Source: Patescibacteria group bacterium (GTDB lineage: Bacteria > Patescibacteriota > Minisyncoccia > UBA6257 > Colwellbacteraceae). From it: 64,000 nt of DNA. The translations under genes and the position numbers were made by a program. Every line of letters begins with the position of its first letter. Within the stretch, counting starts at the first letter, position 1. Location: contig JAMCRD010000003.1 in the NCBI GenBank assembly GCA_023380475.1, positions 28,397 through 92,396 of the forward strand, written 5' to 3'. Under the pieces are notes generated by a model. That model saw nothing but the letters and a program-made list of their open reading frames with translations. It was not told the DNA's origin and made no database searches. Positions 37,688 through 53,618 of the stretch are shown in pieces.

Positions 37688-39280
37688 TCAGTACATTCCT
37701 TCCTTCTTGCTACGTAGGAAAGTGTCGAGGTTTTCGATGAACAGCACCAACACTTGAAACGGGACATCAAACAAGGCAAATACTATGACCAGAATTTTTA
37801 TCTTGCTTAGACCGTAAATGGCGAACTTTCCAATGGTAACGAACGGCATGAAGATCAGGTCGCCGAGAAACGACCAAACTGAGGCTTTGGCTGGTTCCAC
37901 GCTTATGTCCTTAGCCCGATTGTTAACTCTAACACCGGTCGCAGCCACTATGGAAGTAAACAGGATTAAGACTATCGAGCTGGCTACAGAGAACTTGAGC
38001 AATTGCAGTAACCGCCACGTTTCCCATAGAACAAAAATGGATACTGCGAAGAATAGGATGTTAACCATGGCCCGGCCGAACCGTTTCTTGCTCTCAGGCA
38101 ACATCATTAGATACTTCTTACGATGTTCATTGTAAACGGCCGCTTTTATCTCAGTTTGGACAAGATCAAGATTGTGCTTGGAAGGCATGCGGATGACAGC
38201 CAGCAAGAACGTCATAAGCAGGGGAGGGAAGATGATACTTGCCACCGTGTTAGCCAAAATAAAAGTATGAAGAGCGTTGTCGAGCGGTATCTCAATAGCC
38301 AAAGCGATTATGACTTTTGTAATAAAAAGCGAGACTACGCTGAAAAAAGCTAGATTCTTGAGACGACTCTTCTGCTGTTCAAAACGTCTGTTGTAAGCCG
38401 AAACTATAGCCGGAATTAGTTTATGCTCATCACTGAAAATTTCCTCTACAGCTTCCGGTGCCTTGCCACCGTCAAAGACAATATCCCCCAATAGTAGGAA
38501 AACGGTATTAAATTGATTGCATAGTTTGAAAAAATAAGACGATAGGGGATTTCTAGCATAACCATCTAACTCCCGCTTCACGGTCAAGAGATTGCTTGCC
38601 AACCATTCGAACCGCTCATCGGTTGGATCGTCCCAGTAAGGGTAGAACTGTTTGAGCAAGCGATAAGCCAGCTGATCCTCGTCAACGCGCAGCAAAGCTC
38701 TCTGGATGGCTATAAACAGCTGTATGTCTCTATCCCGATCATCAACCTTTCCACCCGATATGACCATATTCTCCCGCAGAGCCAAAAACATTGCTCCTGC
38801 CATCGCTCGATCCTTAAACGGCGGGTCTAAAAATTCTTCGATAGCCGATGCTGTGACCGAGATCAGCCAAGAGGCCAGATCATCCTGACGGTAGGTTCTA
38901 TTGTCTTTAGACTTATCTATAAAAAGAGTGAGATTGTTTATCAAACCCTGCACATGAGCCACCTTGGTTTCTGGGATTTGATCGTTAGGGAAATATCCTG
39001 AGCGGATCATTTCCTTTATAAGCACTTCGGCGACGTTGTTCCGACGGTGCAACCGTATATCTATCTTAAGAGCCCGTGAAATGCTGTGCTGGCGAATCAG
39101 GTGTTCCTCGTAATAATCAACTATGCTCCGTATTTGCTCGTAGGCCTTAGCAAACTTGGAAGCTACTTCGTCAACGTGAATGCATACCGTGGTTTCCGAA
39201 GACGGCTTGTTTAAATTAGAGTTATCCTTGTAACTCTTTAAGAGGTAACGAATTGCTTCTGATAGCATAATGGTGGTCAA
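37688..39280 (-). CDS. hypothetical protein: about 310-aa cytoplasmic N-domain plus 6 C-terminal TM helices
   Basis: A 530-aa ORF with no recognisable motif. The C-terminal third is strongly hydrophobic. Confidence 0.45.
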   Translation of the reverse strand: MTTIMLSEAIRYLLKSYKDNSNLNKPSSETTVCIHVDEVASKFAKAYEQIRSIVDYYEEHLIRQHSISRALKIDIRLHRRNNVAEVLIKEMIRSGYFPNDQIPETKVAHVQGLINNLTLFIDKSKDNRTYRQDDLASWLISVTASAIEEFLDPPFKDRAMAGAMFLALRENMVISGGKVDDRDRDIQLFIAIQRALLRVDEDQLAYRLLKQFYPYWDDPTDERFEWLASNLLTVKRELDGYARNPLSSYFFKLCNQFNTVFLLLGDIVFDGGKAPEAVEEIFSDEHKLIPAIVSAYNRRFEQQKSRLKNLAFFSVVSLFITKVIIALAIEIPLDNALHTFILANTVASIIFPPLLMTFLLAVIRMPSKHNLDLVQTEIKAAVYNEHRKKYLMMLPESKKRFGRAMVNILFFAVSIFVLWETWRLLQLLKFSVASSIVLILFTSIVAATGVRVNNRAKDISVEPAKASVWSFLGDLIFMPFVTIGKFAIYGLSKIKILVIVFALFDVPFQVLVLFIENLDTFLRSKKEGMY

Positions 39281-40335: not shown

Positions 40336-41451
40336 TTATTCATACTGGATGAAACTAGGTTGAGGTGAAAGTTTCAGGATTTCTTCCGGCGTCATTAAGG
40401 CACTGCCAGGCTGCAGTACATCATTCTTGTAGAAAAGCTTGAAACCAGTAAATTGAATAGGCTTAGTTGCTACCACACCATCGTAGGTTTTTATCTTCTG
40501 AGCTTGCGTACCAAAACCATCCATATCCATAACAATCTCTACCTGAGGCAATGGTTTAATCTTATCCCAGTTCGTAACCATCTGATTAGTGAATATGTGA
40601 ATAACCAGTATCTTCGGCGGCAAATTATTTTCTTTAACAATCTGCGCTAGATATTGTGCAGCATAATTAATATCTGCAGCATCCATAGTGCCTATCCTTG
40701 TACCTGGATAACCACCATCACGCATAGAGAATTCTGGATCGAGTGCTAGCTCGACTTGAGATAGCTTCAAATATTTTGCAAGTAACGGTAATTCGGTTTC
40801 GACAGCACTTAAACCAATTTGTACGTCCAAGACAACAAGCCCATTGACACTTTCAGCCAAACTTATAGCTTTATCAATCTGGCTCGACGGCATTCGTAGG
40901 CTATACAACCCATCCGACCCAGGGGTATTCTGCGCAGCGACAGCAATATAGTCTATAGCTGGTATAACTGGCGTTGAGGTATCCACCGCTTGCCACTCAT
41001 CGACCGCATTTTTAAGCATGCTAATCATCTGACCGGGGGGATATTCGCCCAATACTCCCATCTGCTTAGAATAGAAATTACCGTAATAAGCAACGATCCT
41101 GCTAAACGGTAAAATGGCACCTCCCAACGGGTATACCGTTTTGACTGGCCAAGAACTCGGCGTCGAGGTTGCTACAAGCTCTGTAGATGTAGTAGAGGAT
41201 ACAGTAGATGAAGCGATCGCAATCCTAACATAGTGAATTGGGATATTAGCTAACTCTTCCAATTTTGCATTATAGGCAGCTATATCTAAAGGTGGATAGG
41301 TAAATGGAATCGAAGTGGCTTGTTTGGGAACATCTTTGCCGTCGCTTAATACAAACATTGGTTGATAGTAGATAAACGTTGCAGCCACGGCTACAAACAA
41401 CAAAATTCCAAAAACAATAAAGGCTTGCCTTACCCTACTTTTACTCTTCAC
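40336..41451 (-). CDS. membrane-anchored secreted protein (hypothetical)
   Basis: N-terminal TM ILLFVAVAATFIYY plus a 340-aa extracytoplasmic domain of unrecognised family. Confidence 0.45.
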   Translation of the reverse strand: MKSKSRVRQAFIVFGILLFVAVAATFIYYQPMFVLSDGKDVPKQATSIPFTYPPLDIAAYNAKLEELANIPIHYVRIAIASSTVSSTTSTELVATSTPSSWPVKTVYPLGGAILPFSRIVAYYGNFYSKQMGVLGEYPPGQMISMLKNAVDEWQAVDTSTPVIPAIDYIAVAAQNTPGSDGLYSLRMPSSQIDKAISLAESVNGLVVLDVQIGLSAVETELPLLAKYLKLSQVELALDPEFSMRDGGYPGTRIGTMDAADINYAAQYLAQIVKENNLPPKILVIHIFTNQMVTNWDKIKPLPQVEIVMDMDGFGTQAQKIKTYDGVVATKPIQFTGFKLFYKNDVLQPGSALMTPEEILKLSPQPSFIQYE

Positions 41452-41812: not shown

Positions 41813-42922
41813 CTACTTTTTTAGATTCTCTATTATAGCGATCTCCAAGGGTACAACAGCAAATGGGCTGTAACGCATTTCGCTATACGCTCGGATAAGT
41901 GATTTTATAATCGCGATCAACTTCACATCGTCCTTGATCATAGCTCCATGTTTCTTAATCAAAGATATTTCCTCACCAGTCAACTCGCGCTTGAAGACGT
42001 CCTCAAGATCTGGATCGAACCTGAGCGAGAGAACTCTTCTAAAATAGTGAATCAGGTCGCGAGTAAGCTGGACCAAGTTAAAACCTGCTTCATTGATATC
42101 GGCCAGATAACTCAAGGCGGCTTGCAAATCGCCTGCCAGTATGTAGCCCGCCAGTCCCGAGGTGCGGGTGAGACCTACCTTACCCAACAGTCTCTCGACA
42201 TTCTCCAGCGTCGTCCCGCTCCCCATGGACACAACTTGTTCCAACAGAGATTCGGCGTCCCGGAAACTGCCGTCGGCCGCCGTGGCGATAAGTTCCAGAG
42301 CAGCGCTGTCGATATCAAATTTTTCTTCAAGAACTATCTTGTTCAGTTTTTGCAATATTTCCTGAGTTGGCACGCGGCGGAAATGGAAACGCTGGGTACG
42401 CGAGGTTATGGTTGGCGGGAGTTTATCCACCTCAGTCGTAGCCAAAATGAAGATGGCGTGGGCGGGCGGCTCTTCCAAAGTTTTCAAAAGAGCATTCGCT
42501 GCCTCCTTAGTAAGCTGGTGGGCTTCGTCGATTATAAACACCTTATAGCGATTGGAAGTAGGGGAAAGTTTTATGCCTTCCTTCAAGCTTCTTATCTCAT
42601 CGATTCCTCGGTTAGAGGCGGCATCGATCTCGATCACGTCCAAGGCATGCCCTTCGTCTATCTCTCGGCAAGCGCGGCATTTATTACACGGTTCGCCGGT
42701 CGCCCTGAACTTCGGGTCGCTGGCCCGGGTCTCACAGTTAGCTATCTTGGCAATCAATCTTGCCGCCGTCGTCTTGCCGGTACCCCTCGGGCCATAAAAA
42801 AGGTAAGCATGACTCAACTTGTCCTCGCGGGCTGCATTCTTTATGACCTCAACTACCAGGTTCTGTCCAATCAATTCGGACAGGAGTTTGGGCCGGTATT
42901 TCCTGTATATCGCCAGAGCCAT
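41813..42922 (-). CDS. dnaX: DNA polymerase III subunit gamma/tau (short form, AAA+ clamp-loader ATPase)
   Basis: YRKYRPKLLSELIGQ, GPRGTGKTT, the Zn module CNKCRACREI, DEAH, and SRTQRFHFRR (sensor 1 and the arginine finger). The ATG is at 42922. Confidence 0.85.
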   Translation of the reverse strand: MALAIYRKYRPKLLSELIGQNLVVEVIKNAAREDKLSHAYLFYGPRGTGKTTAARLIAKIANCETRASDPKFRATGEPCNKCRACREIDEGHALDVIEIDAASNRGIDEIRSLKEGIKLSPTSNRYKVFIIDEAHQLTKEAANALLKTLEEPPAHAIFILATTEVDKLPPTITSRTQRFHFRRVPTQEILQKLNKIVLEEKFDIDSAALELIATAADGSFRDAESLLEQVVSMGSGTTLENVERLLGKVGLTRTSGLAGYILAGDLQAALSYLADINEAGFNLVQLTRDLIHYFRRVLSLRFDPDLEDVFKRELTGEEISLIKKHGAMIKDDVKLIAIIKSLIRAYSEMRYSPFAVVPLEIAIIENLKK

Positions 42923-43020
42923 CGCTTTAATTATATGTGGAAACGACATAAAATGAAGCGTCAAAACATAAACCCTGAGTTACCCCGATAAACAGAAGGG
43001 GAATTGCCCGCCCGCACATC

Positions 43021-43737
43021 ATGAGTGACTACGAACTGAAGCTTCCCGAGTTCCAAGGCCCGATAGACAAGCTGCTTGAGCTGATTGAGGCCAAGCAGCT
43101 TGAGATAAACCGAGTCAGCTTAGCTGAAGTTACAGCTGACTTCATCCAGTACCTGGAAACCATCAAGAACGTTTCAGCTTCGACTTTGGCCGATTTTATC
43201 TCTGTAGCTGCAAAACTGATTCTTATAAAGTCACACACCCTTCTGCCATCTTTGCCAGTAACAGCTGAAGAAGAATCGGAGATGGCCGAGTTGGAGCATC
43301 GGCTGGCTATATACCGTGAACTAAGGAACGCTGAAAGAAACATCCATAAGATTTGGGGTAAGAACGTTGCTCTAAACAGAGAGTTTTTGGCCAACGTGCC
43401 TGAAGGGTTTTACCTAAGCCAGCCTCTCCAGCCCAATGAGCTGTTAGCGGTAATGAATAAGCTGAACCAGGAAGTGACGACTTTCCTGCCGCAGGAAGCC
43501 TCCGAAAAAGTCAAAATTGTAAGTCTGGAAGAAACTATCCGTGGATTGGCTGCAACGATAAACAAGGTTATGTCGACCAGCTTCGACAGATTGACCAAAG
43601 GTAAAGATAAAAAAGAGATAGTGGTTCTTTTCCTAGCTTTGCTGCATTTACTCAAAGACAATATAATCCAAGTGGATCAACCAGGAATATTCGAGAGTAT
43701 AAATATAGTTTTCCAAAACAATGCCAAGCAATCTTAA
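43021..43737 (+). CDS. scpA: segregation and condensation protein A
   Basis: LPEFQGPIDKLLELIEAKQLEINRVSLAEVTADFIQYL is a ScpA N-terminus. It lies upstream of scpB. Confidence 0.8.
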   Translation: MSDYELKLPEFQGPIDKLLELIEAKQLEINRVSLAEVTADFIQYLETIKNVSASTLADFISVAAKLILIKSHTLLPSLPVTAEEESEMAELEHRLAIYRELRNAERNIHKIWGKNVALNREFLANVPEGFYLSQPLQPNELLAVMNKLNQEVTTFLPQEASEKVKIVSLEETIRGLAATINKVMSTSFDRLTKGKDKKEIVVLFLALLHLLKDNIIQVDQPGIFESINIVFQNNAKQS

Positions 43738-44278
43738 AGCAGCTATCGAGGCTCTTCTCTTCGTATACGGCGAGCCGGTCAAAATAAAGAAACTCGCTCA
43801 GATAAACCAGACTGACGAAGAAACCGTAAACAAAGCCTTGGAAGAAATAAAATCGTCTCTCCAAGCCCAAGAGGGAGGACTAAGTCTGATGGTTTATGAC
43901 GGCGAAGCGGTTCTAACCACCAAGCCGGAACTAGCCAGTCTACTGCAAAATGTGATCAAGGAGGAAATGGATTCAGAGCTGACTCCGGCAAGCCTCGAGA
44001 CCCTAACCATCGCATCTTACTTAGGGCCGTGCAGCCGAGCCGAAATAGACTATGTCCGTGGCGTAAACTCTGCCATCATCTTAAGAAGCTTAAGCGTGCG
44101 GGGACTGGTTACCCGTAAGCCGGATCCTGAAAGAAGCAATAGCTACCTCTATCAAGTGACGGGGGATTTCTTACGCCATATCGGTCTAGGCTCACCAGAA
44201 GATTTGCCCGAATACAGCAAGTACCACGAACTTATCAAAAAACTTCGGGAAATAAATGAGGCTCCCGAAAATAAGTAA
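43721..44278 (+). CDS. scpB: segregation and condensation protein B
   Basis: LKAAIEALLFVYGEPVKIKKLAQI is a wHTH pair typical of ScpB. Confidence 0.8.
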   Translation: MPSNLKAAIEALLFVYGEPVKIKKLAQINQTDEETVNKALEEIKSSLQAQEGGLSLMVYDGEAVLTTKPELASLLQNVIKEEMDSELTPASLETLTIASYLGPCSRAEIDYVRGVNSAIILRSLSVRGLVTRKPDPERSNSYLYQVTGDFLRHIGLGSPEDLPEYSKYHELIKKLREINEAPENK

Positions 44279-45188
44279 GAGCAGACTGTCGCTCGCCATC
44301 ACTGGGCTGGCAGTGCTAGCTATAGCCGCTGGCTTAGTTATCTCAAGAGAACAATATATTTTCAGCTATCCATCAAATCGTCTGACAACGACCTCTTCAG
44401 AACCAACCAGTGCTTACAGCGACACGGCAACGGCGCTAAAGTCCGTTTCTTCGATCTACCAGTATACCTCGAGCACCGATGCAGCCACGGCGGCTGTCTA
44501 TTCGCTCCAAGACGGTACTGAAATCCTAGGATGGAATGATGGCAAGCAGTGGCCTATAGCTTCCCTGACCAAATTGATGACAGCCTTGGTGACCAGCCGC
44601 CTGCTGCCATCCGATCAGCTGGTAACTGTAAGTTCAACCGACGAACAGTACCTCACCGCAGCCCAAGCTGCACCAACTTTCAAGGTAGGGGATACGCTCA
44701 CTGTCCGAGATCTCATTACCTCAATGATGATTGTTTCTTCAGACGATGCTGCCGAAGCTCTGGCAGATTACTACGGTCGCGATAAATTTCTGCAGGTCAT
44801 GAATGATACTGCAAAGAGTCTCAACATGGACGATACGAGATTCGTGAGTCCTTCTGGCCTCTCACCCCAAAACTTATCAACAACCTCCGACTTGTTCCAG
44901 TTGGTAAAATTCATATGGTCCACTGACCCGAACCTCCTCGCTCTAACCCGCCAAAAACAAGCTAGGGTCACGGTATACGAGGGAGGTGCGGCTACTTTCA
45001 GATATCTCACCAATATCGACCAGTTCGCTGGAGCAGCGAACTTCCTTGGCGGTAAAACAGGAACCTTGCCAGTCAGCGCTCAAAACATCATCTCCATTTT
45101 TGAGAGCGGCGGCGCGGCGAAAGTTATAATTGTTCTTGGATCCACCAATCGCTACGCCGAAGCCACTAAACTACTAACTACACTATGA
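44256..45188 (+). CDS. D-alanyl-D-alanine carboxypeptidase (peptidase S11-like)
   Basis: A TM anchor, then SxxK (ASLTKLM), a second serine motif (VSSDDAA) and KTG (GGKTGTL). Confidence 0.7.
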   Translation: MRLPKISKSRLSLAITGLAVLAIAAGLVISREQYIFSYPSNRLTTTSSEPTSAYSDTATALKSVSSIYQYTSSTDAATAAVYSLQDGTEILGWNDGKQWPIASLTKLMTALVTSRLLPSDQLVTVSSTDEQYLTAAQAAPTFKVGDTLTVRDLITSMMIVSSDDAAEALADYYGRDKFLQVMNDTAKSLNMDDTRFVSPSGLSPQNLSTTSDLFQLVKFIWSTDPNLLALTRQKQARVTVYEGGAATFRYLTNIDQFAGAANFLGGKTGTLPVSAQNIISIFESGGAAKVIIVLGSTNRYAEATKLLTTL

Positions 45189-46234
45189 TAACTACTGTCC
45201 TCCAAGCCATAAGAGTTTTCACTTTTGCAATCGTAGCTTTTTTGCTGGCCTTGTCATTGACGCCAACTCTTTTGGACTTTCTCAAGCGGATAAACGCTCG
45301 GAAACAGATACGCTCCAGCGAGGCCGCCCCGATATATTCCCGACTTCACGCCAACAAGGCTGGCACCCCCACTATGGGTGGCGTCATCATCTGGGGCACA
45401 GTCATCGTCTTGGCCTTGGTATTCGCCATACTTAACCTATTGTTCAACGGTTTCTTTAAATATCTTAACTTTATAGACCGTGCTCAGACCTATCTGCCGC
45501 TAGCCGCACTGCTAATCGCAGCCATTCTAGGATTAGCCGATGACATCGTAGGCATATTGAAAATCGGCCCGAAGGGCGGCGGGCTGACGGTGCAATACAA
45601 ATTACTGGTCTACTTTGTCTTGTCGGCCATCGGTGCTTGGTGGTTCTACTACCGTCTCGGCTGGAACACGCTTTACATTCCATTCGTCGGCAATGTTGCT
45701 ATCGGCCTCTGGTACATACCGATATTCATATTTGTCGTCGTCGCCACCGCTTTCTCGGCTAACGAAACCGATGGTCTAGATGGCCTGCTAGGCGGTGTTT
45801 CTTTGTTCGCCTTCGGGGCATTGACCACTGTAGCTTTTGTGCTGGGGCGTTATGACCTCGCAGTGATGGGTGGAACAATGGGTGGAGCACTGTTGGCTTT
45901 CCTTTGGTTCAACATCCACCCTGCCAAATTATTCATGGGTGACACGGGCAGCATGGCTATCGGCATAACCTTGGGCATCATGGCCTTGCTCACCAACACA
46001 GCACTGTTCCTGCCCTTGTTTGCTTTCATAATGGTCATTGAATCACTGTCGGTAATCATTCAGCTGATCAGCAAGAGGCTTTTTAAGCATAAAATATTCC
46101 TCTCTACGCCAATTCATCACCATTTCGAGGCTCTGGGCTGGCCGGAATACCAGGTTACCATGCGTTTCTGGATAATATCAGTCGTGTTTGCCGGGTTGGG
46201 CCTAATCGTTTTCTTCCTGGCTAGGATCCTGTAA
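45185..46234 (+). CDS. mraY: phospho-N-acetylmuramoyl-pentapeptide transferase
   Basis: KAGTPTMGG, NETDGLDGL and PAKLFMGDTGSMAIG are MraY signatures. Confidence 0.88.
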   Translation: MITTVLQAIRVFTFAIVAFLLALSLTPTLLDFLKRINARKQIRSSEAAPIYSRLHANKAGTPTMGGVIIWGTVIVLALVFAILNLLFNGFFKYLNFIDRAQTYLPLAALLIAAILGLADDIVGILKIGPKGGGLTVQYKLLVYFVLSAIGAWWFYYRLGWNTLYIPFVGNVAIGLWYIPIFIFVVVATAFSANETDGLDGLLGGVSLFAFGALTTVAFVLGRYDLAVMGGTMGGALLAFLWFNIHPAKLFMGDTGSMAIGITLGIMALLTNTALFLPLFAFIMVIESLSVIIQLISKRLFKHKIFLSTPIHHHFEALGWPEYQVTMRFWIISVVFAGLGLIVFFLARIL

Positions 46235-46292: not shown

Positions 46293-47777
46293 ATGAGCCT
46301 GCTTATAAAAGGCGTCCAAGTGGTGGACGGTGAAGGGAAGCCACCATATTTGGCTGATGTTCTCGTCCAAAAGAATGTGATTGGCGCCATTGGCAACTTT
46401 AAAAACAAACAGACCGATGAAGTCATAGACGGCCTAGGCAACTATCTCATGCCTGGTTTCATAGATGTCGACACCGATTCCGACCACTACCTGGATATAT
46501 TCACTCATCCATCCCAGACCGATTTTACATCTCAAGGAGTAACTACCATTATTGGCGGCCACTGCGGTTCATCGCTGGCACCGCTGCTCTACGGCACGCT
46601 CGAGGGATTGGACAAATGGGCTGACCCATCGACTATCAACGTGAATTGGCACACCATGGCTGAATTCCTATCATCTTTGGACAAACTCAAGCTAGGGGTT
46701 AATTTTGGATCCCTGGTCGGATACTCAACCGTACGTCGAGCTTTAACCGGAGATAACGAACGCGCCCTGACTCACAGCGAGTTGGCCATCTTTAAAGAAG
46801 TTGTCAGTCGGGCTTTACGGGAAGGAGCCTTCGGTCTGTCGACCGGCCTAGGTTACGTCCACGGCCGCACGGCCAAACCGGAGGAGATAAAAGAGCTGGT
46901 CAGCATCCTTAAAAACTTTGACGCTGTGTATGCCACCCATCTGAGAAATCAAACCGATCGTCTTCTGGCCTCAGTTAGAGAAACAATTGACGTTGCTTCA
47001 GCCACCGGCGTCCAGACTCTGATAAGCCACCTCCGCCCCCTGAAAGGGTATGAAGATCAATATATCAAGGCTCTCGAATTGATCGAGCACAGTGCCGCCC
47101 AAGCCAGCATTTTCTTCGATGTCTATCCCCACGACACGAGCATCTACTCGCTGTACTCGCTCCTACCACGCGAAGCCCAGAAGAGGAGCGCCGAAGCAAC
47201 GTTGGAGCACATAGCCAAACCCAAGAACCTCAAGACGATAGAAAAAAATCTGGCCGAACTTGATCCGGATAATATGCAGATTGCCAGCGCCCCTAAATAT
47301 GATCATTTAGTAGGCAAAACTATCCGCAACGTCGCCGAAGACAAAGGCATCACCCCTGCCAAAGCTCTACTGGAACTGATGAGGCTTACCTCACTAAAAG
47401 CCACTGTCTTCTATAAAGACGTTAACCTGGACTTACTAACTCAAGCCATGGTCAGCGACCGTTGTTTCATAGCCTCCAACGGCCACTCGCCGCTCCCTGG
47501 AAAATTTATGAAGCACGAGCGTTCGACCAATACCTTCCCTAAATTCCTGGAGATGGCAAGCAAGCTCAACCTGATGCCGATAGAAAAAGCTGTAAAAAAG
47601 ATAACCTCCTTGCCGGCCAAATATTTCGATCTCAACGACAGGGGAGCGATCAAAGAAGGCAAAATCGCCGACCTGGCCCTGGTCGGCAAGGATGATCTCA
47701 AAGTGAAAGAAGTCGTCGTTGGCGGGGAACGCCGAGGTGCAATCCTTCGCCACCAAAATCACAAAGGCAAGAAGTGA
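46293..47777 (+). CDS. D-aminoacylase-family amidohydrolase (divergent; HxH replaced by DxD)
   Basis: PGFIDVDTDSD stands where GFIDxHTH is expected. GGHCGSS, YATHLRN, ISHLRP and the C-terminal TSLPAKYFDLNDRGAIKEGKIADLALV match the N-acyl-D-amino-acid deacylase architecture. Confidence 0.6.
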   Translation: MSLLIKGVQVVDGEGKPPYLADVLVQKNVIGAIGNFKNKQTDEVIDGLGNYLMPGFIDVDTDSDHYLDIFTHPSQTDFTSQGVTTIIGGHCGSSLAPLLYGTLEGLDKWADPSTINVNWHTMAEFLSSLDKLKLGVNFGSLVGYSTVRRALTGDNERALTHSELAIFKEVVSRALREGAFGLSTGLGYVHGRTAKPEEIKELVSILKNFDAVYATHLRNQTDRLLASVRETIDVASATGVQTLISHLRPLKGYEDQYIKALELIEHSAAQASIFFDVYPHDTSIYSLYSLLPREAQKRSAEATLEHIAKPKNLKTIEKNLAELDPDNMQIASAPKYDHLVGKTIRNVAEDKGITPAKALLELMRLTSLKATVFYKDVNLDLLTQAMVSDRCFIASNGHSPLPGKFMKHERSTNTFPKFLEMASKLNLMPIEKAVKKITSLPAKYFDLNDRGAIKEGKIADLALVGKDDLKVKEVVVGGERRGAILRHQNHKGKK

Positions 47778-48877
47778 TGCGCCAGAGAGGTCATGCCGAC
47801 TACATAATCCTCGTAACGTTTATCATTCTGGTAGCTTTCGGCTTCATGATGCTGGCCTCAGCCTCATCAGACTTAGGGAAGACCAACTTCAACAACCCTT
47901 ATTACTATATTGAACACCAGATAATGTACGGTTTTAGTTTAGGCGTCGTCGGCTTCTTAATCGGATTGCTGGTGCCGTATAAGTTCTACAAGAGATACGC
48001 TCTACTTTTCTTGATAGCCACAATAGCACTACTGGTGATAGTCTTCGTGCCTCATATCGGTGTATCCAGCGGCGGAGCTCAACGCTGGATAAATGTTGGC
48101 CCGTTAACCGTACAACCTGGAGAAGTTACTAAACTGCTTTTTATAATGTATCTGGCTGCGTGGCTGTCGTCGGCGCGCAAAGACAGACGCACTCGAACAG
48201 TAACCGAAGGGCTTATACCTTTTTGGGTCACAACCGGCTTGGTAGCCGTGTTGCTCCTTTTGGAGCATTCCACCAGTTCAGTTTTTATCGTCCTTGCCGG
48301 GGCTTTAACTGTTTACTTCGCAGCCGGTGCCAAGAAATTTTTCTTGTTAGCCACCTTCGTCCTGGGAGGGCTGTTGGTCGGCGCTTTTATCCTTATCACC
48401 CCTTACAGACTGGCTCGCATTGATGCCTACCTCAATCCTTCGGCCCAGAACGTATACGGCTCAGGCTACCAGATTAACCAATCGCTTCTGACCATTGGTT
48501 CCGGCAGTTTGTTTGGGGTAGGTTACGGCAATTCCGTTTCTAAAAGGTATCTACCAGCTAGGCTGGATGACGCCATTTTTGCCATCATCGCCGAGGAGTT
48601 CGGCTTTATAGGTTCTGTGGCCGTGGTTGCTCTTTTCTTTACCTTAGTCGGTCGGGGATTGATCCTAGCCAAGAAAATGTCTGATCCCATGGGTAAGTCA
48701 ATACTGGTCGGCTTCTCAACGATAATCGGCGTCCAGGTTTTCCTGCATATAGGTTCGGTATCCCAGCTGATCCCGCTGACCGGTGTGCCACTGCCTTTCA
48801 TAAGTTACGGTGGTACGGCTTTAGCTGTATTTATGACCATGGTGGGCATAATGTTAAACATAAGCAAGTATGTCTAA
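47774..48877 (+). CDS. ftsW: SEDS-family peptidoglycan glycosyltransferase FtsW/RodA
   Basis: 10 TM segments, the VGPLTVQPGE loop, and PFISYGGTALAVFMTMVG at the C-terminus. It lies between mraY and murG. Confidence 0.8.
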   Translation: MMRQRGHADYIILVTFIILVAFGFMMLASASSDLGKTNFNNPYYYIEHQIMYGFSLGVVGFLIGLLVPYKFYKRYALLFLIATIALLVIVFVPHIGVSSGGAQRWINVGPLTVQPGEVTKLLFIMYLAAWLSSARKDRRTRTVTEGLIPFWVTTGLVAVLLLLEHSTSSVFIVLAGALTVYFAAGAKKFFLLATFVLGGLLVGAFILITPYRLARIDAYLNPSAQNVYGSGYQINQSLLTIGSGSLFGVGYGNSVSKRYLPARLDDAIFAIIAEEFGFIGSVAVVALFFTLVGRGLILAKKMSDPMGKSILVGFSTIIGVQVFLHIGSVSQLIPLTGVPLPFISYGGTALAVFMTMVGIMLNISKYV

Positions 48878-50024
48878 GTTGAGAGTATTGATGACTGGCG
48901 GCGGGACAGGCGGGCATATTTATCCGCTGGTCTCGGTTGCGGCTGAGCTTCAAGTATTGGCCGCCGAGAAGAAAATCAGCTTGGATATCCATTACCTCGG
49001 TGCCTTCGGACCGTTCCAAGAACTGCTCGAGCTAAACGGCTTGAAAGTAGGCCGCATCGCCGATAGCAGACTGAGACGTTATTTTTCGATGCGCAATTTC
49101 ATAGACGTTCCGAAATTTGGCTACAGCTTATTGCAAGCTGCCTTCAAGATGTTTTGGTTCATGCCAGATGTAGTTTTCTCGAAAGGCGGACCCGGAGCGC
49201 TGGCAGTTGTCTTGATTGCTCGCTTCTACCGGATACCGGTAATAATCCATGAGTCCGATTCTGTGCCAGGACTTACTAACCTTATCTCCGGTAAGTATGC
49301 CAATGTAATCGCGACTTCTTTCGAGTCCGCTTCGGTCTATTTCCCAAGCGATAAAATAGTGCTGACCGGCAACCCCATCCGCCGCTATATGCTGGAAGAT
49401 TTTAAAAAGGAATCGGTTAGCCGTAACAAGGGATTCCTCGGCTTCGATCCTTCTTTGCCTCTCATAACCGTGATGGGTGGTTCGCAAGGAGCTGCGGCTC
49501 TAAACGACTTCGTCATCGGACATCTGCGGGAGATATTGAATATAACGCAGGTTTTGCACCAAACAGGAACGGCCAACTACGACGATGTTGTGTCTAAACT
49601 TGAATCAGCCTCGGCGGGAATCGATAACGATCTGCTCAAACGCTACCGTCCCGTCGCTTATCTCAAAAATGATCTACGAGCTGCCTTTATCGCTTCTGAT
49701 TTGGTAGTCAGCCGCGCCAGCGGCGGCGGCATATTTGAACTGGCCGCTTTTGGAAAACCATCTATCCTCATACCACTGCCGTCGGACGTGGCCGCCGGAG
49801 ACCACCAGACCAAGAACGCTGCCGATTACTGCCAGACCGGTGCGGCTGTGATGGTGAAGCAGGACGAAATGCCCAGCCGTCTACTCAAAGAGGTTCAAAG
49901 ACTGCTAGCATCGCCGGCGGAATTAAATCAAATGAGTCAGGCAGCCACACGTTTTTCTAAGCCTGAGGCCGCTTTAAATATAGCCGAAACCGTCCTAAAA
50001 TTAGGAGGTTATGGTGAGAGTTAG
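48870..50024 (+). CDS. murG: UDP-GlcNAc:undecaprenyl-PP-MurNAc-pentapeptide GlcNAc transferase
   Basis: VLMTGGGTGGHIYPLVSVAAEL is the MurG N-terminal G-loop. Confidence 0.88.
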   Translation: MSKLRVLMTGGGTGGHIYPLVSVAAELQVLAAEKKISLDIHYLGAFGPFQELLELNGLKVGRIADSRLRRYFSMRNFIDVPKFGYSLLQAAFKMFWFMPDVVFSKGGPGALAVVLIARFYRIPVIIHESDSVPGLTNLISGKYANVIATSFESASVYFPSDKIVLTGNPIRRYMLEDFKKESVSRNKGFLGFDPSLPLITVMGGSQGAAALNDFVIGHLREILNITQVLHQTGTANYDDVVSKLESASAGIDNDLLKRYRPVAYLKNDLRAAFIASDLVVSRASGGGIFELAAFGKPSILIPLPSDVAAGDHQTKNAADYCQTGAAVMVKQDEMPSRLLKEVQRLLASPAELNQMSQAATRFSKPEAALNIAETVLKLGGYGES

Positions 50025-51402
50025 ATTCGCGCCTTCTCCGACAGGTTCATTGCATATCGGAGGAGCGCGCACAGCGCTATTTAACTGGCTGCACGCGAAA
50101 TCGCAGGGCGGTCATTTTATCCTTCGGATTGAAGACACGGACCGCGAGCGGTCCACCCCTGAGTCCGAGGCGGACATTTTGGAGGGGCTGTCTTGGCTAG
50201 GGATAACCTGGGACGAGTTCTACCGCCAGAGCGATCGGATTGGGATCTATCGCGAGTATCTTAAAAAACTTATTGATGACGACAAAGCGTATTACTGCTT
50301 CTGTTCCAAGGAAGACCTGGAGGCTGAACGGCAGGCGTTGGTAGCTCAAGGTTTTCCTCCCAAATATTCCGGCCGATGTCGCGCCCTCTCAAAAGAAGAG
50401 GTAGTCAAACGACTTAACGAAAATAAAGAACACGTCATCCGTTTCAAAGTACCCGAAAGGGAAGTGGTGTTTAAGGACTTAATAAGAGGCCAAGTGAAGT
50501 TCGACGCCTCGCTGTCGGGCGACGTCATAATCGCCAAAAATCTGGACCAGCCACTGTACAACTTTGCGGTAACTGTCGACGACTTTCTGATGGGTATAAC
50601 ACATGTGATCAGGGGAGAGGAGCACCTCTCGAACACGCCTAAACAGATACTGCTGGCTGAGGCTATGGGCATGAACGCACCGCAATTCGCACATCTTCCT
50701 CTCATCTTAAATACTGACCGCAGCAAGATGTCCAAGCGTATGTCTGACGTCGCCTTGCATGACTATCGTAACAAAGGCTATCTACCGCAAGCGATAGTCA
50801 ATTTTATATCCTTCCTAGGATGGCATCCCAGGGAGGACAAAGATATGATGAGTCTCGACCAGATCACATCCGAATTTGAGCTTAACCGCGTTCAGAAAGG
50901 CGGAGCTATATTCAATGTAGATAAATTGGATTGGCTGAACGCTCACTATATCAACAGCCTGACTCCTGAAGAGCTAGCCGGGATGGCTAAGCCCTTCATG
51001 CCTGAAGGGTACGAACTGACAATCGCGATGGCGGCCAGTGTAAAAGGGAGAATAAAAACCTTGGCTGAGATACAAGGCATAGTTGATTTGTTCTTCAAGC
51101 TGCCGGCGTATGATACTGAATTATTAAAATGGAAAGACATGCCGCTTTCACAGGTGACCTCTAACCTGGAGTCAGCTTTAACCGTGCTAAATAAAATAGG
51201 CGAGAGTGACTACAACCAAGCTAATCTCGAGAAGGTTTTATCACCGCTGGCACCGGAAGGGAATAGGGGAGAACTCTTCTGGCCGCTAAGAGTTGCTCTC
51301 TCGGGCAGTAAAGCTTCTCCCGGTCCATTCGAGATAATGGAAGTCTTGGGTAAACAGGAAAGCCTCTCCAGAATAGAGAAAGCCATCACTAAAGCTAGAT
51401 AA
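50011..51402 (+). CDS. gltX: glutamyl-tRNA synthetase
   Basis: RFAPSPTGSLHIGGARTALFNWL (HIGH) and KMSKR are class I motifs. Confidence 0.9.
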   Translation: MVRVRFAPSPTGSLHIGGARTALFNWLHAKSQGGHFILRIEDTDRERSTPESEADILEGLSWLGITWDEFYRQSDRIGIYREYLKKLIDDDKAYYCFCSKEDLEAERQALVAQGFPPKYSGRCRALSKEEVVKRLNENKEHVIRFKVPEREVVFKDLIRGQVKFDASLSGDVIIAKNLDQPLYNFAVTVDDFLMGITHVIRGEEHLSNTPKQILLAEAMGMNAPQFAHLPLILNTDRSKMSKRMSDVALHDYRNKGYLPQAIVNFISFLGWHPREDKDMMSLDQITSEFELNRVQKGGAIFNVDKLDWLNAHYINSLTPEELAGMAKPFMPEGYELTIAMAASVKGRIKTLAEIQGIVDLFFKLPAYDTELLKWKDMPLSQVTSNLESALTVLNKIGESDYNQANLEKVLSPLAPEGNRGELFWPLRVALSGSKASPGPFEIMEVLGKQESLSRIEKAITKAR

Positions 51403-51404: not shown

Positions 51405-52682
51405 ATGGTTCGTAAAATCATCCATAGCAGAGAAATGGCCAAGTTCCTGACCGCGACGGTTCTGCTGGTTAATCTCGCTACGCCTTTTACAGCGGCAGCT
51501 CAAACCGTGACGACTCAACCCACAGCTGCCTCCACCGCATCCCTGCAATCCGAGATCGACGCCAACAATCAGGCAATAGCTAACCTAAATGCACAGATAG
51601 CCCAGTATCAAGCTGAGATCCAGCAGGCTGGAGAAAACAAGAAGACTCTTCAGGCAGCCATCAATTCCCTCAACCTGCAACGCAAAAAGATACAAACACA
51701 AATATACGTCACTAAAGCCCAGATTAGTACCACCAACATCCAGATCCAGCAACTCGGCGACAGTATAGCCAGCACTACACAGATAATCGCCTCCGAGCAG
51801 GAAGCACTAGCCGCAGATATGCGTCTCTTAGAACAAGCTGATAATCAGGAACCACTAGCGATAATATTGTCTTCCGGCACTCTAGACCAAGCCTGGACCA
51901 ACGCTAACGCGGCTCTTCAAATTCAGGAAGCGATTCAAGAAAAGATGACTGCACTTAGGGCTCAAGAAGATAGCCTTACGACTTCCCAAACTGCTTCCCA
52001 AGTTAAACAGGCGACGCTTTCTTCACAGCAACAAACCCTGACCAAACAACAGCAGACCCTGACTGATACAGAAAAATCTAAGACTCGGCTGTTGTCCGAA
52101 ACGAACGCGCAAGAGTCCGTGTATGAACAACTCCTTGCCTCAGCCGAAGAGCAACTCAACAGCATTTCAACATTTTCAAAAAACGCTGGGGGATCAGGAA
52201 TCCTAGGAGATCAAACCCGATGCGATGCTTGGGGGTGCTATTATAACCAGCGCGATGCCGCCTGGGGCAGCGATCCGCTGGACGGCACGAGCTATACTCT
52301 CGCCAGCGATGGTTGCCTAGTAACTTCGGTGGCCATGGTCCTGACTCACTACGGCTATCACAATGTCACACCCGTGACTATAAATACCAACCCCAACAAC
52401 TTTGCGCCATACTTCCCAGCTTATTTGCTGACCACCATAAACGTTGATGGGACTACAGTCACCAGAGTCAGAGCGGCGATTGATGCCACACTGGCCACCG
52501 GTAACCCGGTGATAGTTGGCTTGCATGCCTACGGCGGCACCCACTTTGTAGTTTTGGTGAGCGGCAGCAAGGGTAATTACATCATGCGCGACCCATACAT
52601 AGAAAACGGCGACAATATTCTATTTGCAGATCACTATTCCCTAAGGAGCGTCTTTGCGGTAACCAAGGTACAAATAAGCTGA
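51405..52682 (+). CDS. secreted coiled-coil protein with a C-terminal C39-like cysteine peptidase domain (PcsB-like architecture)
   Basis: A signal peptide, about 230 aa of Q/A-rich coiled-coil, then DGCLVTSVAMVLTHYGY and HAYGGTHFVVLVSG (a Cys/His papain-like pair). Confidence 0.5.
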   Translation: MVRKIIHSREMAKFLTATVLLVNLATPFTAAAQTVTTQPTAASTASLQSEIDANNQAIANLNAQIAQYQAEIQQAGENKKTLQAAINSLNLQRKKIQTQIYVTKAQISTTNIQIQQLGDSIASTTQIIASEQEALAADMRLLEQADNQEPLAIILSSGTLDQAWTNANAALQIQEAIQEKMTALRAQEDSLTTSQTASQVKQATLSSQQQTLTKQQQTLTDTEKSKTRLLSETNAQESVYEQLLASAEEQLNSISTFSKNAGGSGILGDQTRCDAWGCYYNQRDAAWGSDPLDGTSYTLASDGCLVTSVAMVLTHYGYHNVTPVTINTNPNNFAPYFPAYLLTTINVDGTTVTRVRAAIDATLATGNPVIVGLHAYGGTHFVVLVSGSKGNYIMRDPYIENGDNILFADHYSLRSVFAVTKVQIS

Positions 52683-52719: not shown

Positions 52720-52872
52720 ATGGGTTTGCAGACGCTGATAAACAATGTGACATCCACCGCTGCTACCATAATTGGTCCGGCCAAAACTATTCTCGTGTCT
52801 GTAACTCAGATCATCGTACAGATATTGCAATACATTGTTTACCTTCTTAATTTACTGATATCTAAGCTATAG
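52720..52872 (+). CDS. small hydrophobic peptide (50 aa, hypothetical)
   Basis: MGLQTLINNVTSTAATIIGPAKTILVSVTQIIVQILQYIVYLLNLLISKL, followed by a terminator. It is not in the ORF track. Confidence 0.25.
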   Translation: MGLQTLINNVTSTAATIIGPAKTILVSVTQIIVQILQYIVYLLNLLISKL

Positions 52873-52891: not shown

Positions 52892-52920
52892 AAAACAGTC
52901 CTCCAAGAGGGGACTGTTTT
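52892..52920 (+). terminator. rho-independent terminator
   Basis: aaaacagtcctccaagaggggactgtttt. Confidence 0.7.
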
Positions 52921-52940: not shown

Positions 52941-53618
52941 ATGTTCACTCCTATAAGGAAAGTAAACGGGATATCTTATGAAAGAATAGCTGTTAAGACA
53001 CATCTGATAAGATTCGGGGAAAATCTTATAGGACTCCTCAAAAAATATGTTTCACCTGTTTTGAAGCCGGGGGATTGGTTAGCACTTTCTGAAAAAGTTG
53101 TGTCGGTAACGCAAAACAATATCCGCCATATTTCGACTGTAAAAGTTAGTTGGCTAGCCAAATTGATTGTGAGGGGAGTGAAGAAATACCCCGATGACAA
53201 AGGATGGGACAATCCTGAGAAAATGCAGGTAGCAATAGAAATGGCTGGTTATCCAAGAGCTATCCTAGCAATGTTGCTCGGCGGCATCGGGAAGGTGTTC
53301 CATATCCGTGGCATCTTCTGGACTGTCTTAGGGCACCGCGCTGGAGAACTTGATGGCTTCAATCCAGTGGTTCTTCAACCGTATCGAGAAAACGTCGCTC
53401 TACCGCCATCGCATCCAAGAGAAATGTGCGAAAGGATTGAACGAGAATTGGGCGCACCGGCAGTGATCATAGACGGCAATAACATCAATGTTAAAGTCAT
53501 CGCGATGAGCCACGGCATGCCAGTAAACACTAAGTTCGCTAGATTGGTGCTCTTGGACAATCCCATGGGGCAGGAAGATGAACTAACCCCCTTCATAATT
53601 GTGCGTAAGAAAGATTAA
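52941..53618 (+). CDS. CofE-like (F420-0:gamma-glutamyl ligase family) protein, putative
   Basis: KPGDWLALSEKVVSVTQNN and IIDGNNINVKVIAMSHG resemble the CofE-fold pattern. The match is modest. Confidence 0.35.
   Translation: MFTPIRKVNGISYERIAVKTHLIRFGENLIGLLKKYVSPVLKPGDWLALSEKVVSVTQNNIRHISTVKVSWLAKLIVRGVKKYPDDKGWDNPEKMQVAIEMAGYPRAILAMLLGGIGKVFHIRGIFWTVLGHRAGELDGFNPVVLQPYRENVALPPSHPREMCERIERELGAPAVIIDGNNINVKVIAMSHGMPVNTKFARLVLLDNPMGQEDELTPFIIVRKKD

What the first reader, a model, noticed from the sequence alone, without database searches (positions are those of the whole stretch)
46293..47777. The murD slot between mraY and ftsW is occupied by a divergent D-aminoacylase-family amidohydrolase with HxH replaced by DxD
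In the conserved dcw order mraY-murD-ftsW-murG, the gene at the murD position has no Mur-ligase motifs (no GxxGKT). It matches N-acyl-D-amino-acid deacylase architecture (GGHCGSS, YATHLRN, ISHLRP, and a C-terminal beta-sandwich ending KIADLALV). The first metal-binding HxH is replaced by DVDTDSD. D-aminoacylases act on N-acyl-D-Glu and D-Asp, and D-Glu addition is what MurD performs. This placement is therefore suggestive of an altered route for D-amino-acid or peptidoglycan-stem metabolism. A pseudo-enzyme is also possible.
Basis: partly seen in the sequence, partly recalled or inferred. Interest (0 to 1): 0.5.

Follow-up and report, generated by a model that had tools for sequence, protein, structure and literature searches.

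The report
Disabled D-aminoacylase homologue beside ftsW
The gene between mraY and ftsW in this ultra-small (Patescibacteria) bacterium is a D-aminoacylase-fold protein that has lost its catalytic base and one metal site; it is kept immediately upstream of ftsW across a whole bacterial class, so it is probably a non-enzymatic, undescribed part of the cell-wall and division gene cluster, not a replacement for MurD.

Summary
ORF 46293-47777 (494 aa) lies between mraY and ftsW-murG. It has no Mur-ligase features and is a clear D-aminoacylase homologue (PDB 1m7j E 7e-45; AF2 model pLDDT 91.5, TM 0.80-0.85). HxH is replaced by DxD.

The placement is not chance. About 30 Patescibacteria (Paceibacteria) loci keep X-ftsW-murG-gltX, with X ending 0-43 bp from ftsW. 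All 37 non-CPR homologues keep every catalytic residue. No clade member among 139 keeps both His or the Asp. Of the 150 most similar 50%-identity representatives, 61 have also lost beta-site ligands, and two such copies (L098, L020) sit at the same position.

X did not take murD's place. A related lineage has mraY-murL-murD-X'-ftsW, where X' keeps the Asp. A complete Nealsonbacteria genome has mraY-murL-murD-ftsW with no X. The window's clade therefore lacks murL-murD at this locus.

I could not determine whether murD lies elsewhere in this genome. My best reading is a pseudoenzyme acting as a binding or scaffold partner of FtsW/MurG/MraY.

The parts
46293..47777 (+). X: a D-aminoacylase-fold protein (494 aa) with a disabled active site.
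   Evidence: PDB 1m7j E 7e-45. AF2 pLDDT 91.5, pTM 0.91. Foldseek TM 0.80-0.85 to 9gv8, 1m7j, 3gip and 9kb4. Pfam Amidohydro_1 and Amidohydro_3 only.
46470..46478 (+). Codons D60-T61-D62, which replace the HxH motif (His67/His69, alpha-metal ligands).
   Evidence: Alignment to 1m7j. In 139 clade members position 60 is N, D or H and position 62 is D, S, N or T. In 37 of 37 non-CPR homologues both are H.
46482..46487 (+). The D64-H65 'DH' motif. H65 is a gain specific to the clade and is kept even in copies that lost all metal ligands.
46563..46565 (+). Cys91, equivalent to Cys96 of 1m7j (beta-site/bridging ligand), retained.
   Evidence: 138 of 139 close and GTDB clade members have Cys. Codon checked.
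46938..46940 (+). His216, equivalent to His220 (beta-metal ligand), retained.
47028..47030 (+). His246, equivalent to His250 (beta-metal ligand), retained. It is followed by the clade-specific insertion P249.
47478..47480 (+). Asn396 in place of the catalytic general base Asp366.
   Evidence: HMMER alignment 'fiaSNGhs' against 'migSDGlp'. In the clade the residue is N 105, H 17, S 11, L 2 and others 4 of 139, and none is D. In the outgroup it is D in 36 of 37.
47124..47126 (+). Tyr278, equivalent to Tyr283 of 1m7j (carboxylate 'c-site'), retained.
   Evidence: Residue role from PMC12149444. Conserved in 123 of 139.
47520..47522 (+). Arg410, equivalent to Arg377 of 1m7j (carboxylate 'c-site'), retained.
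   Evidence: Conserved in 117 of 139.
45185..46234 (+). mraY, 58 bp upstream of X.
   Evidence: PF00953 and PF10555. Directly upstream of X in about half of the relatives.
47774..48877 (+). ftsW. Its start (GTG 47774 or ATG 47777) overlaps the X stop codon TGA at 47775-47777.
   Evidence: PF01098 E 2e-83. Sequence 'AAGAAGTGATG'. The X-to-ftsW distance is 0-43 bp in all annotated relatives.
48870..50024 (+). murG, overlapping the end of ftsW.
   Evidence: PF03033 and PF04101.
50011..51402 (+). gltX (glutamyl-tRNA synthetase), overlapping the end of murG. It is a conserved member of the block.
   Evidence: PF00749 E 5e-107. Follows murG in all loci long enough to show it.
43021..45188 (+). Upstream genes of the same tightly packed co-directional block: scpA (43021-43737), scpB (43721-44278) and an S11 D-Ala-D-Ala carboxypeptidase (44256-45188).
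   Evidence: The same order appears in L005, L007, L088, L090 and L098.
51405..52682 (+). C39-like peptidase-domain protein that closes the block. Relatives carry an M23 peptidase at this position.
   Evidence: PF13529.. A terminator-like hairpin lies at 52899-52911 (the scan as a whole is not above chance).

Best explanation
**What it is.** X is a pseudoenzyme derived from an N-acyl-D-amino-acid deacylase.
- It keeps the whole fold.
- In this genome it also keeps the Cys91/His216/His246 (beta) zinc site and the Tyr188, Tyr278 and Arg410 residues. In real D-acylases these hold the acyl group and the free alpha-carboxylate of an N-acyl-D-amino acid.
- It has lost the two alpha-site histidines and the aspartate that activates water, so it should bind but not hydrolyse such a ligand.

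**How it probably works.**
- The natural ligands of that shape in this gene cluster are the L-Ala-D-isoGlu unit (free alpha-carboxylate) or the C-terminal D-Ala of UDP-MurNAc-peptides and lipid I/II.
- X is made from the same operon as FtsW, with stop and start codons overlapping, alongside MraY and MurG.
- I infer that it works as a non-catalytic accessory protein of that machinery, either a scaffold or a regulator that reads the precursor.

**History.**
- The gene's home position is upstream of ftsW, not in murD's slot. Relatives have mraY-murL-murD-X'-ftsW.
- The window's clade has no murL-murD at this locus.

**Shown:** homology, fold, residue losses, the erosion series and the synteny states.

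**Inferred:** zinc and ligand binding, lack of hydrolysis, and partnership with FtsW/MurG/MraY.
For: - Family and fold: 1m7j E 7e-45. The AF2 model has pLDDT 91.5, and Foldseek gives TM 0.80-0.85 to five solved D-acylase-family enzymes.
- Selective loss of catalytic residues:
  - His67/His69 are replaced by D60/D62 and Asp366 by N396.
  - In 139 clade members none keeps both histidines or the Asp. All 37 non-CPR homologues keep both histidines and 36 of 37 keep the Asp, the other being gapped.
  - Asp366 is the proposed general base, and 1rjq is the D366A mutant.
- Binding residues kept in the close clade: C91 138/139, H216 137/139, H246 138/139, Y188 132/139, Y278 123/139, R410 117/139. Their roles are taken from PMC12149444.
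- Erosion series among the 150 best 50%-identity representatives:
  - 23 are X'-type (Asp and beta site kept).
  - 49 are X-type (Asp lost).
  - 61 have the beta site broken, and Y188, Y278 and R410 also decay in them.
- Orthologues with all ligands lost occupy the same position:
  - P0247 in L098 reads ...dacA-mraY-nudix-X-ftsW-murG-gltX-M23.
  - L020 shows the same.
- Purifying selection: X diverges about as fast as FtsW and MurG between genomes. Against L098, X is 42.5% identical, FtsW 48% and MurG 47%. P0247 still scores 626 bits against the family profile.
- Linkage: X-ftsW-murG-gltX holds in all of the roughly 30 Patescibacteria loci, with an X-ftsW gap of 0-43 bp and overlapping codons in the window.
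- X is not in murD's place:
  - L100/L101 read mraY-murL-murD-X'-ftsW.
  - L102 reads mraY-murL-murD-ftsW.
  - MurD scores 323 bits on TIGR01087, and MurL matches PF26299/PF26298 and NF041275 at E 5e-79.
Against: - No experiment or structure shows zinc or ligand binding, or any contact with FtsW, MurG or MraY.
- The beta site is perfectly conserved in the 120 closest relatives. That would also fit a still-active mononuclear enzyme using another base, for example the gained His65.
- E. coli NagA works without HxH (own knowledge).
- If ligand binding mattered, the fully degenerate orthologues should not exist. The 'binder' part may therefore hold only for this subclade and 'scaffold' for the family as a whole.
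- The NJ tree behind the erosion order is weak. The exact clade was recovered in 1 of 30 bootstraps.
- Residue calls in very divergent representatives depend on hmmalign.
Confidence: 0.5

Rival explanations
1. X is still an enzyme. It would be a mononuclear (Cys/His/His) zinc hydrolase or isomerase acting on an N-acyl-D-amino-acid-like cell-wall metabolite, for example cleaving L-Ala-D-Glu in recycled or scavenged stem peptides, with another residue (His65, or His/Ser at position 396) taking over as base.
For: - The beta-site ligands are kept in 120 of the 120 closest relatives, and the c-site and n-site residues are largely kept.
- His65 is gained in the sequence classes that have lost the Asp.
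- The sister form X' keeps the Asp and lies next to murL-murD, so the ancestor was probably an active enzyme of D-Glu or stem-peptide metabolism.
- D-aminoacylase is activated by the beta-site metal alone (citing Lai et al. 2004).
Against: - The strand-8 Asp is the proposed general base in D-acylases. It is absent from all 139 clade members, and its replacement varies (N, H, S, L, G), which is not what a working catalytic residue looks like.
- 61 of the 150 representatives, including orthologues in the same position (L098, L020), have no metal site at all.
- His65 is kept in those metal-free copies too, so it is not simply a replacement base.
Confidence: 0.27
2. X functionally replaces MurD (or MurD plus MurL). 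On this view the clade has no MurD, and X, alone or with a partner, installs D-Glu on UDP-MurNAc-L-Ala by a non-canonical route.
For: - X lies where murD normally is.
- No MurD or MurL was found in the 64-kb window or within about 10 kb of mraY, X, ftsW, murG, murC or murE in about 30 clade loci.
- The MurD product is itself an N-acyl-D-glutamate, the ligand class of this family.
- MurC and MurE exist in the clade, so the step is needed.
Against: - In L100/L101 a homologue coexists with murL-murD and sits after them, so its position is not murD's.
- X has no nucleotide-binding motif or domain.
- Its active-site residues are variable or absent across orthologues, which cannot sustain an essential ligase.
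- murC, murE, murF, murB and ddl are also missing from the window, so the absence of murD there says little.
- Only a small part of any clade genome was seen.
Confidence: 0.04
3. X is an unrelated metabolic gene or a decaying relic that merely sits in the cluster and has no role in the cell wall.
For: Active-site erosion is what a decaying gene shows. The genes just upstream of X vary between genomes: LigT-like, NUDIX, ComEC or TraG-like.
Against: - The ORFs are intact, full length and about 490 aa in all loci.
- Close relatives average 53-59% column identity.
- X diverges at a rate comparable to FtsW and MurG.
- Its position immediately upstream of ftsW is kept across lineages whose MraY is only 43-47% identical, in genomes under strong reduction.
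Confidence: 0.08

Closest known systems
[quoted passage not shown]
   Same: - Same fold and domain layout: TIM barrel, composite beta-sandwich and mobile alpha/beta insert (TM 0.80-0.85, 25-27% identity).
- Same Cys/His/His beta site.
- Same Tyr/Arg carboxylate site and PYP-type hinge.
   Different: - The alpha-site HxH and the general base Asp are gone.
- There are clade-specific gains: His65, the Pro249 insertion and a conserved W109/N116/W119 loop.
- It has a fixed position upstream of ftsW in a cell-wall cluster.
- Many orthologues lack any metal ligand.
Catalytically dead amidohydrolase-superfamily proteins: CRMP/DPYSL (dihydropyrimidinase-like) proteins and the inactive dihydroorotase-like PyrC' subunit of Pseudomonas aspartate transcarbamoylase (own knowledge)
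   Same: - They have the same kind of history: an amidohydrolase fold kept after loss of metal and catalytic residues, then reused as a binding or structural partner.
- PyrC' is encoded next to its partner gene.
- CRMPs are the next-best structural matches after the D-acylases (TM about 0.55).
   Different: - They belong to different subfamilies, the dihydropyrimidinase and dihydroorotase branches.
- No partner has been demonstrated for X.
- The window's copy still has a complete beta-metal site.
X' of related Paceibacteria (P0292; L100 10001-11575)
   Same: - It is the closest relative outside the clade: 34% identity and 473 bits against the family profile.
- It shares the conserved KW..IN.NW loop.
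- It has the same position immediately upstream of ftsW-murG-gltX.
   Different: - It keeps His69, the beta site, the Asp and the Arg, so it is probably an active hydrolase.
- It is about 30 aa longer.
- It lies directly after murL-murD.
[quoted passage not shown]
   Same: Only the genomic neighbourhood and the chemistry of the ligand class (N-acyl-D-glutamate) are shared.
   Different: There is no sequence or fold relation, no ATP-binding motif and no Mur-ligase domains.

Membership tests
D-aminoacylase / N-acyl-D-amino-acid deacylase family (structural family) | Significant full-length sequence homology to characterised members. | tested here: met
   phmmer against PDB gives 1m7j 7.3e-45, 9g5m 1.8e-42 and 3gip 9.3e-37, in two stretches covering residues 4-281 and 336-463. 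NCBIfam PRK09061 matches over the full length at E 4e-21, below its cut-off.
D-aminoacylase / N-acyl-D-amino-acid deacylase family (structural family) | Fold: (beta/alpha)8 barrel with an N/C-terminal beta-sandwich and an inserted alpha/beta domain. | tested here: met
   AF2 pLDDT 91.5. Foldseek TM 0.80-0.85 with about 515 aligned columns to 9gv8, 1v4y, 1m7j, 9kb4 and 3gip.
D-aminoacylase (as an active enzyme, EC 3.5.1.81/82/83) | Strand-1 HxH alpha-metal ligands (His67/His69). | tested here: not met
   The residues are D60/D62. They vary across the clade.
D-aminoacylase (as an active enzyme, EC 3.5.1.81/82/83) | Beta-metal ligands Cys96, His220, His250. | tested here: met
   The residues are C91, H216 and H246. 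Metal occupancy itself was not tested.
D-aminoacylase (as an active enzyme, EC 3.5.1.81/82/83) | Strand-8 general base Asp366. | tested here: not met
   The residue is N396. It is never Asp in 139 clade members and is Asp in 36 of 37 outgroup sequences.
D-aminoacylase (as an active enzyme, EC 3.5.1.81/82/83) | Carboxylate (c-site) Tyr283/Arg377 and n-site Tyr192. | tested here: met
   Y278, R410 and Y188 are present.
D-aminoacylase (as an active enzyme, EC 3.5.1.81/82/83) | Hydrolysis of N-acyl-D-amino acids. | not testable with these tools
   This needs an enzyme assay.
Mur ligase / MurD | Mur_ligase_M and Mur_ligase_C domains, MurD-like N domain, and ATP-binding P-loop. | tested here: not met
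   No Pfam or NCBIfam Mur hit. No P-loop. tblastn with E. coli MurD finds nothing at this locus.
[quoted passage not shown] | MurL_N and MurL_epimerase_C domains (PF26299/PF26298). | tested here: not met
   The Pfam scan of X lists only Amidohydro_1 and Amidohydro_3. phmmer with a Paceibacteria MurL finds nothing in the window.
Pseudoenzyme (operational definition) | Homologue of an enzyme family that lacks residues essential for catalysis, yet is conserved under purifying selection. | tested here: met
   The general base and alpha site are lost. 61 of 150 representatives lack the beta site. ORFs are intact and synteny is conserved. Divergence is similar to FtsW and MurG. Actual inactivity was not tested.

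The most novel reading that the evidence does not exclude
The window's clade (Colwell-, Wolfe-, Liptonbacteria and relatives) has lost murD and murL altogether. On this reading X is part of a non-canonical way of putting (D-)Glu on UDP-MurNAc-L-Ala, or of bypassing that step. X would be the remnant of a D-Glu-handling enzyme that once stood next to murL-murD, perhaps working with neighbours such as gltX or another ligase.
Probability: 0.04. Interest if true: 0.95.

Novelty: new variant of a known kind. Interest (0 to 1): 0.6.

Why it matters
- **A new cluster member.** The dcw cluster is one of the most conserved gene arrays in bacteria, and its members are nearly all known. This gene is an extra member. 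It is conserved across a class of Patescibacteria, wedged against ftsW and translationally coupled to it, and it derives from a D-amino-acid enzyme but is disabled. My ten full-text searches, of which five targeted it directly, found no description of it.
- **If it is a partner or regulator.** If it works with the FtsW/MurG/MraY machinery, it would be a lineage-specific divisome or lipid-II factor in organisms that lack many canonical division regulators.
- **As a case study.** It offers a natural series of pseudoenzyme evolution: X', then X, then the fully degenerate copies.
- **A by-product.** The murL-murD pair in Paceibacteria suggests that the alternative L-Glu/epimerase route to D-Glu operates in the candidate phyla radiation. 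That bears on how these auxotrophic cells obtain D-Glu.

Tried and rejected
**Searching for murD in this genome or clade**
- Pfam and NCBIfam scans of all large window ORFs found no Mur ligase.
- tblastn and phmmer with E. coli MurD found only MurC and MurE. The search covered about 100 loci.
- The same search with Paceibacteria MurD and MurL found hits only in L100/L101. A later lookup with a MurD hit as the query retrieved murL-murD in L102/L103.
- A metagenome scan with a clade MurE gave 3 loci and no murD.
- A protein search with L100 MurD returned 120 top hits, all at least 57% identical and from the Nealsonbacteria/Parcubacteria group. None lay on contigs whose lengths match X-bearing contigs, so it says nothing about the window's clade.
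- Extending the window was not possible. The contig starts near the window's 5' end, and the 3'-end protein is not on record.
- Viral-contig scans for X and for MurD found nothing.

**Literature**
- Ten searches found no description of this gene or of murD loss in the candidate phyla radiation.
- The Parcubacteria core-gene table lists murE and murF but neither murC nor murD, so it is uninformative.

**Other ideas tested**
- A CofE-like gamma-glutamyl ligase in the window (52941-53618) was considered as a candidate substitute for MurD. It appears near the cluster in only 2 of about 25 genomes, so it is not linked to it.
- The promoter and terminator scan was not above chance.
- The NJ phylogeny shows X' nearest the outgroup and degenerate copies scattered among the X-type copies. 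Exact-clade bootstrap support is negligible (1 of 30), so I use it only as a description.
Full report
**1. What is at the coordinates**

The ORF 46293-47777 (+) encodes 494 aa. It lies in a tightly packed co-directional block:

| Gene | Coordinates |
|---|---|
| scpA | 43021-43737 |
| scpB | 43721-44278 |
| S11 D-Ala-D-Ala carboxypeptidase | 44256-45188 |
| mraY | 45185-46234 |
| X | 46293-47777 |
| ftsW | 47774/47777-48877 |
| murG | 48870-50024 |
| gltX | 50011-51402 |
| C39-like protein | 51405-52682 |

- Most neighbouring genes overlap by a few bases.
- mraY and X are 58 bp apart.
- The X stop codon TGA overlaps the ftsW start in 'GTGATG'.
- X has no Mur-ligase domain and no P-loop.
- The window comes from a Patescibacteria MAG (GCA_023476555.1).

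**2. Family and fold**

- X matches solved D-aminoacylases at E 7e-45 (1m7j) down to 9e-37 (3gip, N-acyl-D-Glu deacylase).
- An AlphaFold2 model built from a 70-sequence alignment has pLDDT 91.5 and pTM 0.91.
- Foldseek places the model with the D-acylase family (9gv8, 1v4y, 1m7j, 9kb4, 3gip) at TM 0.80-0.85. The next matches are dihydropyrimidinases and the dead CRMP proteins at about 0.55.

**3. The active site**

The positions below are in register with 1m7j. The codons were checked.

| Role in D-aminoacylase | 1m7j residue | X residue | State |
|---|---|---|---|
| Alpha-metal ligand | His67 | D60 | lost |
| Alpha-metal ligand | His69 | D62 | lost |
| Beta-site / bridging ligand | Cys96 | C91 | kept |
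| Beta-metal ligand | His220 | H216 | kept |
| Beta-metal ligand | His250 | H246 | kept |
| General base | Asp366 | N396 | lost |

- Asp366 is the proposed water-activating base, and 1rjq is the D366A mutant.
- The residues that hold the substrate's free carboxylate are present as Y278 and R410 (Tyr283 and Arg377 in A. faecalis numbering). The residue that holds the acyl group (Tyr192) is present as Y188.
- Taken alone, the window's protein therefore looks like a natural 'substrate-trap' version of a D-acylase. The metal and pocket are intact and the chemistry is removed.

**4. The pattern is specific to a clade and is ancient**

- A protein search gave more than 2000 relatives. The 120 best are 47-75% identical. 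Those that carry a taxon name are labelled Colwellbacteria, Patescibacteria group bacterium or simply 'bacterium'.
- A scan of one genome per species shows a sharp gap. Patescibacteria hits are 38-75% identical and everything else is at most 31% (full-length hits).
- All 37 non-CPR homologues keep H, H, C/D, H, H and D. None of the 19 CPR ones does.
- In 139 clade sequences the catalytic and beta-site positions are as follows:
  - position 60 is N, D or H;
  - position 62 is D, S, N or T;
  - position 396 is N (105), H (17), S (11), L (2) or another residue (4), and never D;
  - C91, H216 and H246 are kept in 137-138 of 139.
- The other residues conserved across the whole family are kept too. 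The clade has also gained His65, a Pro249 insertion and a conserved W109/N116/W119 loop.

**5. Beyond the close relatives the site erodes completely**

An exhaustive profile search of 1.84 billion representatives gave 3658 hits below 1e-30. I classified the 150 best, which are mutually at most 50% identical:

| Class | Count |
|---|---|
| Canonical (all catalytic residues kept) | 2 |
| X'-type: one His, the beta site and the Asp kept | 23 |
| Beta site and Asp kept, no His at position 62 | 3 |
| X-type: beta site kept, Asp lost (the window's type) | 49 |
| Beta-site ligands broken | 61 |
| Partial or gapped | 12 |

- In the 61 with a broken beta site, the ligand-holding Tyr, Tyr and Arg also decay.
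- These are not stray paralogues.
  - P0247 has lost every ligand. It sits in dnaX | DUF4015-scpA-scpB-dacA-mraY-nudix-X-ftsW-murG-gltX-M23 (L098).
  - The degenerate Wolfebacteria copy L020 is also immediately upstream of ftsW-murG.
  - P0247 still scores 626 bits against the family profile.
- Between genomes X diverges about as fast as FtsW and MurG.
- This is how a pseudoenzyme behaves when its conserved role does not need catalysis and, across the family, does not even need the metal.
- An NJ tree puts the X' sequences next to the outgroup and scatters the degenerate copies among the X-type copies. Bootstrap support is negligible, so I treat it as descriptive only.

**6. Genomic context**

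- X-ftsW-murG-gltX is present in every Patescibacteria locus long enough to show it, about 30 loci.
- The distance from X to ftsW is 0-43 bp.
- mraY lies directly upstream in about half of the loci. In the others, small genes (LigT-like, NUDIX) or unrelated ones (ComEC, MBL-fold, TraG-like) come between them, or mraY is elsewhere.
- The fixed link is therefore between X and ftsW, not between mraY and X.

**7. X is not in murD's place**

Three arrangements exist among Paceibacteria:

| State | Gene order | Where seen |
|---|---|---|
| A | dacA-mraY-murL-(103-aa ORF)-murD-ftsW-murG-gltX, no X | Complete Nealsonbacteria genome CP061210.1 (L102) |
| B | dacA-mraY-murL-murD-X'-ftsW-murG-gltX-M23 | L100/L101 |
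| C | mraY-X-ftsW-murG-gltX | The window's clade |

- In state B, MurD scores 323 bits on TIGR01087, above the cut-off. MurL matches PF26299/PF26298 and NF041275 at E 5e-79.
- X' keeps the Asp, the Arg, the beta site and one His.
- By MraY and GltX identity, the state B lineage is closer to state A than to the window's clade (63% and 60% against 43% and 47%).
- This gene family therefore has its own slot between murD and ftsW. State C is that arrangement without murL-murD.
- The neighbourhood does suggest that the ancestral, active enzyme dealt with a D-Glu-containing or stem-peptide metabolite. The MurD/MurL product is itself an N-acyl-D-glutamate. That is an inference.

**8. Is murD elsewhere in the window's clade? 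Not settled**

- No MurD or MurL is present in the 64-kb window or within about 10 kb of mraY, X, ftsW, murG, murC or murE in about 30 clade loci.
- MurA is in the window. MurC (TIGR01082, 397-413 bits) and MurE (TIGR01085, 360 bits, next to a FemAB gene) occur in clade relatives, so the clade needs a Glu-adding step.
- The window also lacks murC, murE, murF, murB and ddl, so the absence of murD from it carries little weight.
- A search with the Paceibacteria MurD saturated at 57% identity or more, within the Nealsonbacteria-like group, and says nothing about the window's clade.
The decisive test is an HMM search of the complete assemblies named under next steps.

**9. Mechanism, as far as I can commit**

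- *Most likely (about 0.5).* X is a non-catalytic derivative of a D-acylase. In this subclade it still binds zinc and an N-acyl-D-amino-acid-type carboxylate, either the L-Ala-D-isoGlu unit or the terminal D-Ala of UDP-MurNAc-peptides and lipid I/II. It works as an accessory or scaffold of the MraY/MurG/FtsW machinery with which it is co-translated.
  - Shown: homology, fold, residue pattern, the erosion series and synteny.
  - Inferred: binding, inactivity and the partner.
- *Main rival (about 0.27).* X is still an active mononuclear enzyme using a different base.
- *Minor rivals.* A neutral passenger or relic (about 0.08), and a MurD substitute (about 0.04).

**10. Comparison with known systems, and novelty**

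- By fold and ancestry X belongs to the D-aminoacylase structural family. As an enzyme it fails two defining features, HxH and the general base.
- It behaves like the known dead members of the amidohydrolase superfamily, the CRMPs and the PyrC' subunit of Pseudomonas ATCase (own knowledge), but it comes from a different branch and sits in a different cellular context.
- My ten full-text searches found no paper describing it.
- I rate it a new variant of a known kind and moderately high in interest. It is a conserved, undescribed dcw-cluster gene of a major uncultured lineage, and its function can be tested directly.

Noticed in passing
L100 7019-9728; L101 5797-8506; L102 7978-11353 (Candidatus Nealsonbacteria CP061210.1): [quoted passage not shown] This suggests that the alternative L-Glu/epimerase route to D-Glu operates in the candidate phyla radiation. 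The 2021 minireview lists the pathway only for some Gamma- and Alphaproteobacteria and rare actinobacteria.
   Followed up: partly
window 52941-53618 (+); L011 19685-20371: A 225-aa protein of the F420-0:gamma-glutamyl ligase (CofE) family (PF01996, E 4.5e-9) lies just downstream of the cluster. It is an odd find in a genome with so little cofactor metabolism. It appears near the cluster in only 2 of about 25 relatives.
   Followed up: partly
window 50011-51402 and all related loci: gltX (glutamyl-tRNA synthetase) always follows murG directly and often overlaps it, in genomes with or without X and with or without murD at the locus. This looks like a Paceibacteria-specific extension of the dcw block.
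   Followed up: partly
window 60925-62241 (+): A terminase large subunit (PF03237/PF17289) lies among short unannotated ORFs at 55-64 kb. The stretch looks like a prophage. In relatives murC lies in this region downstream of the gltX/peptidase genes.
   Followed up: no
window 7787-17640: A full elongation-machinery neighbourhood is present in a tiny genome: murA (7787-9055), two MreB paralogues (9062-10069 and 13662-14708), likely mreC/mreD (not scanned in the window; named by the order seen in L091), and a PBP2-type transpeptidase (15784-17640).
   Followed up: no
window 41813-42991: ORF 41948-42991 (+) has no family hit and lies entirely within dnaX on the opposite strand (41813-42964), so it is probably not a gene. 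Relatives carry a DUF4015 gene between dnaX and scpA that the window lacks.
   Followed up: partly
L090 17962-20218 / L093 9082-11338: A FemAB-family transferase overlaps the start of murE, just after the M23 peptidase gene, in a clade member. This hints at a branched or bridged stem peptide.
   Followed up: no
window about 52720-52872; L001 16428-16580; L005 16693-16842; L007 16436-16588: A roughly 50-aa ORF recurs after the C39/M23 peptidase gene in several relatives. It has no family hit.
   Followed up: no
window 24874-27921, 20754-22196, 37688-39280 (-), 40336-41451 (-): Four large ORFs (1015, 480, 530 and 371 aa) have no Pfam hit at E <= 0.001.
   Followed up: no
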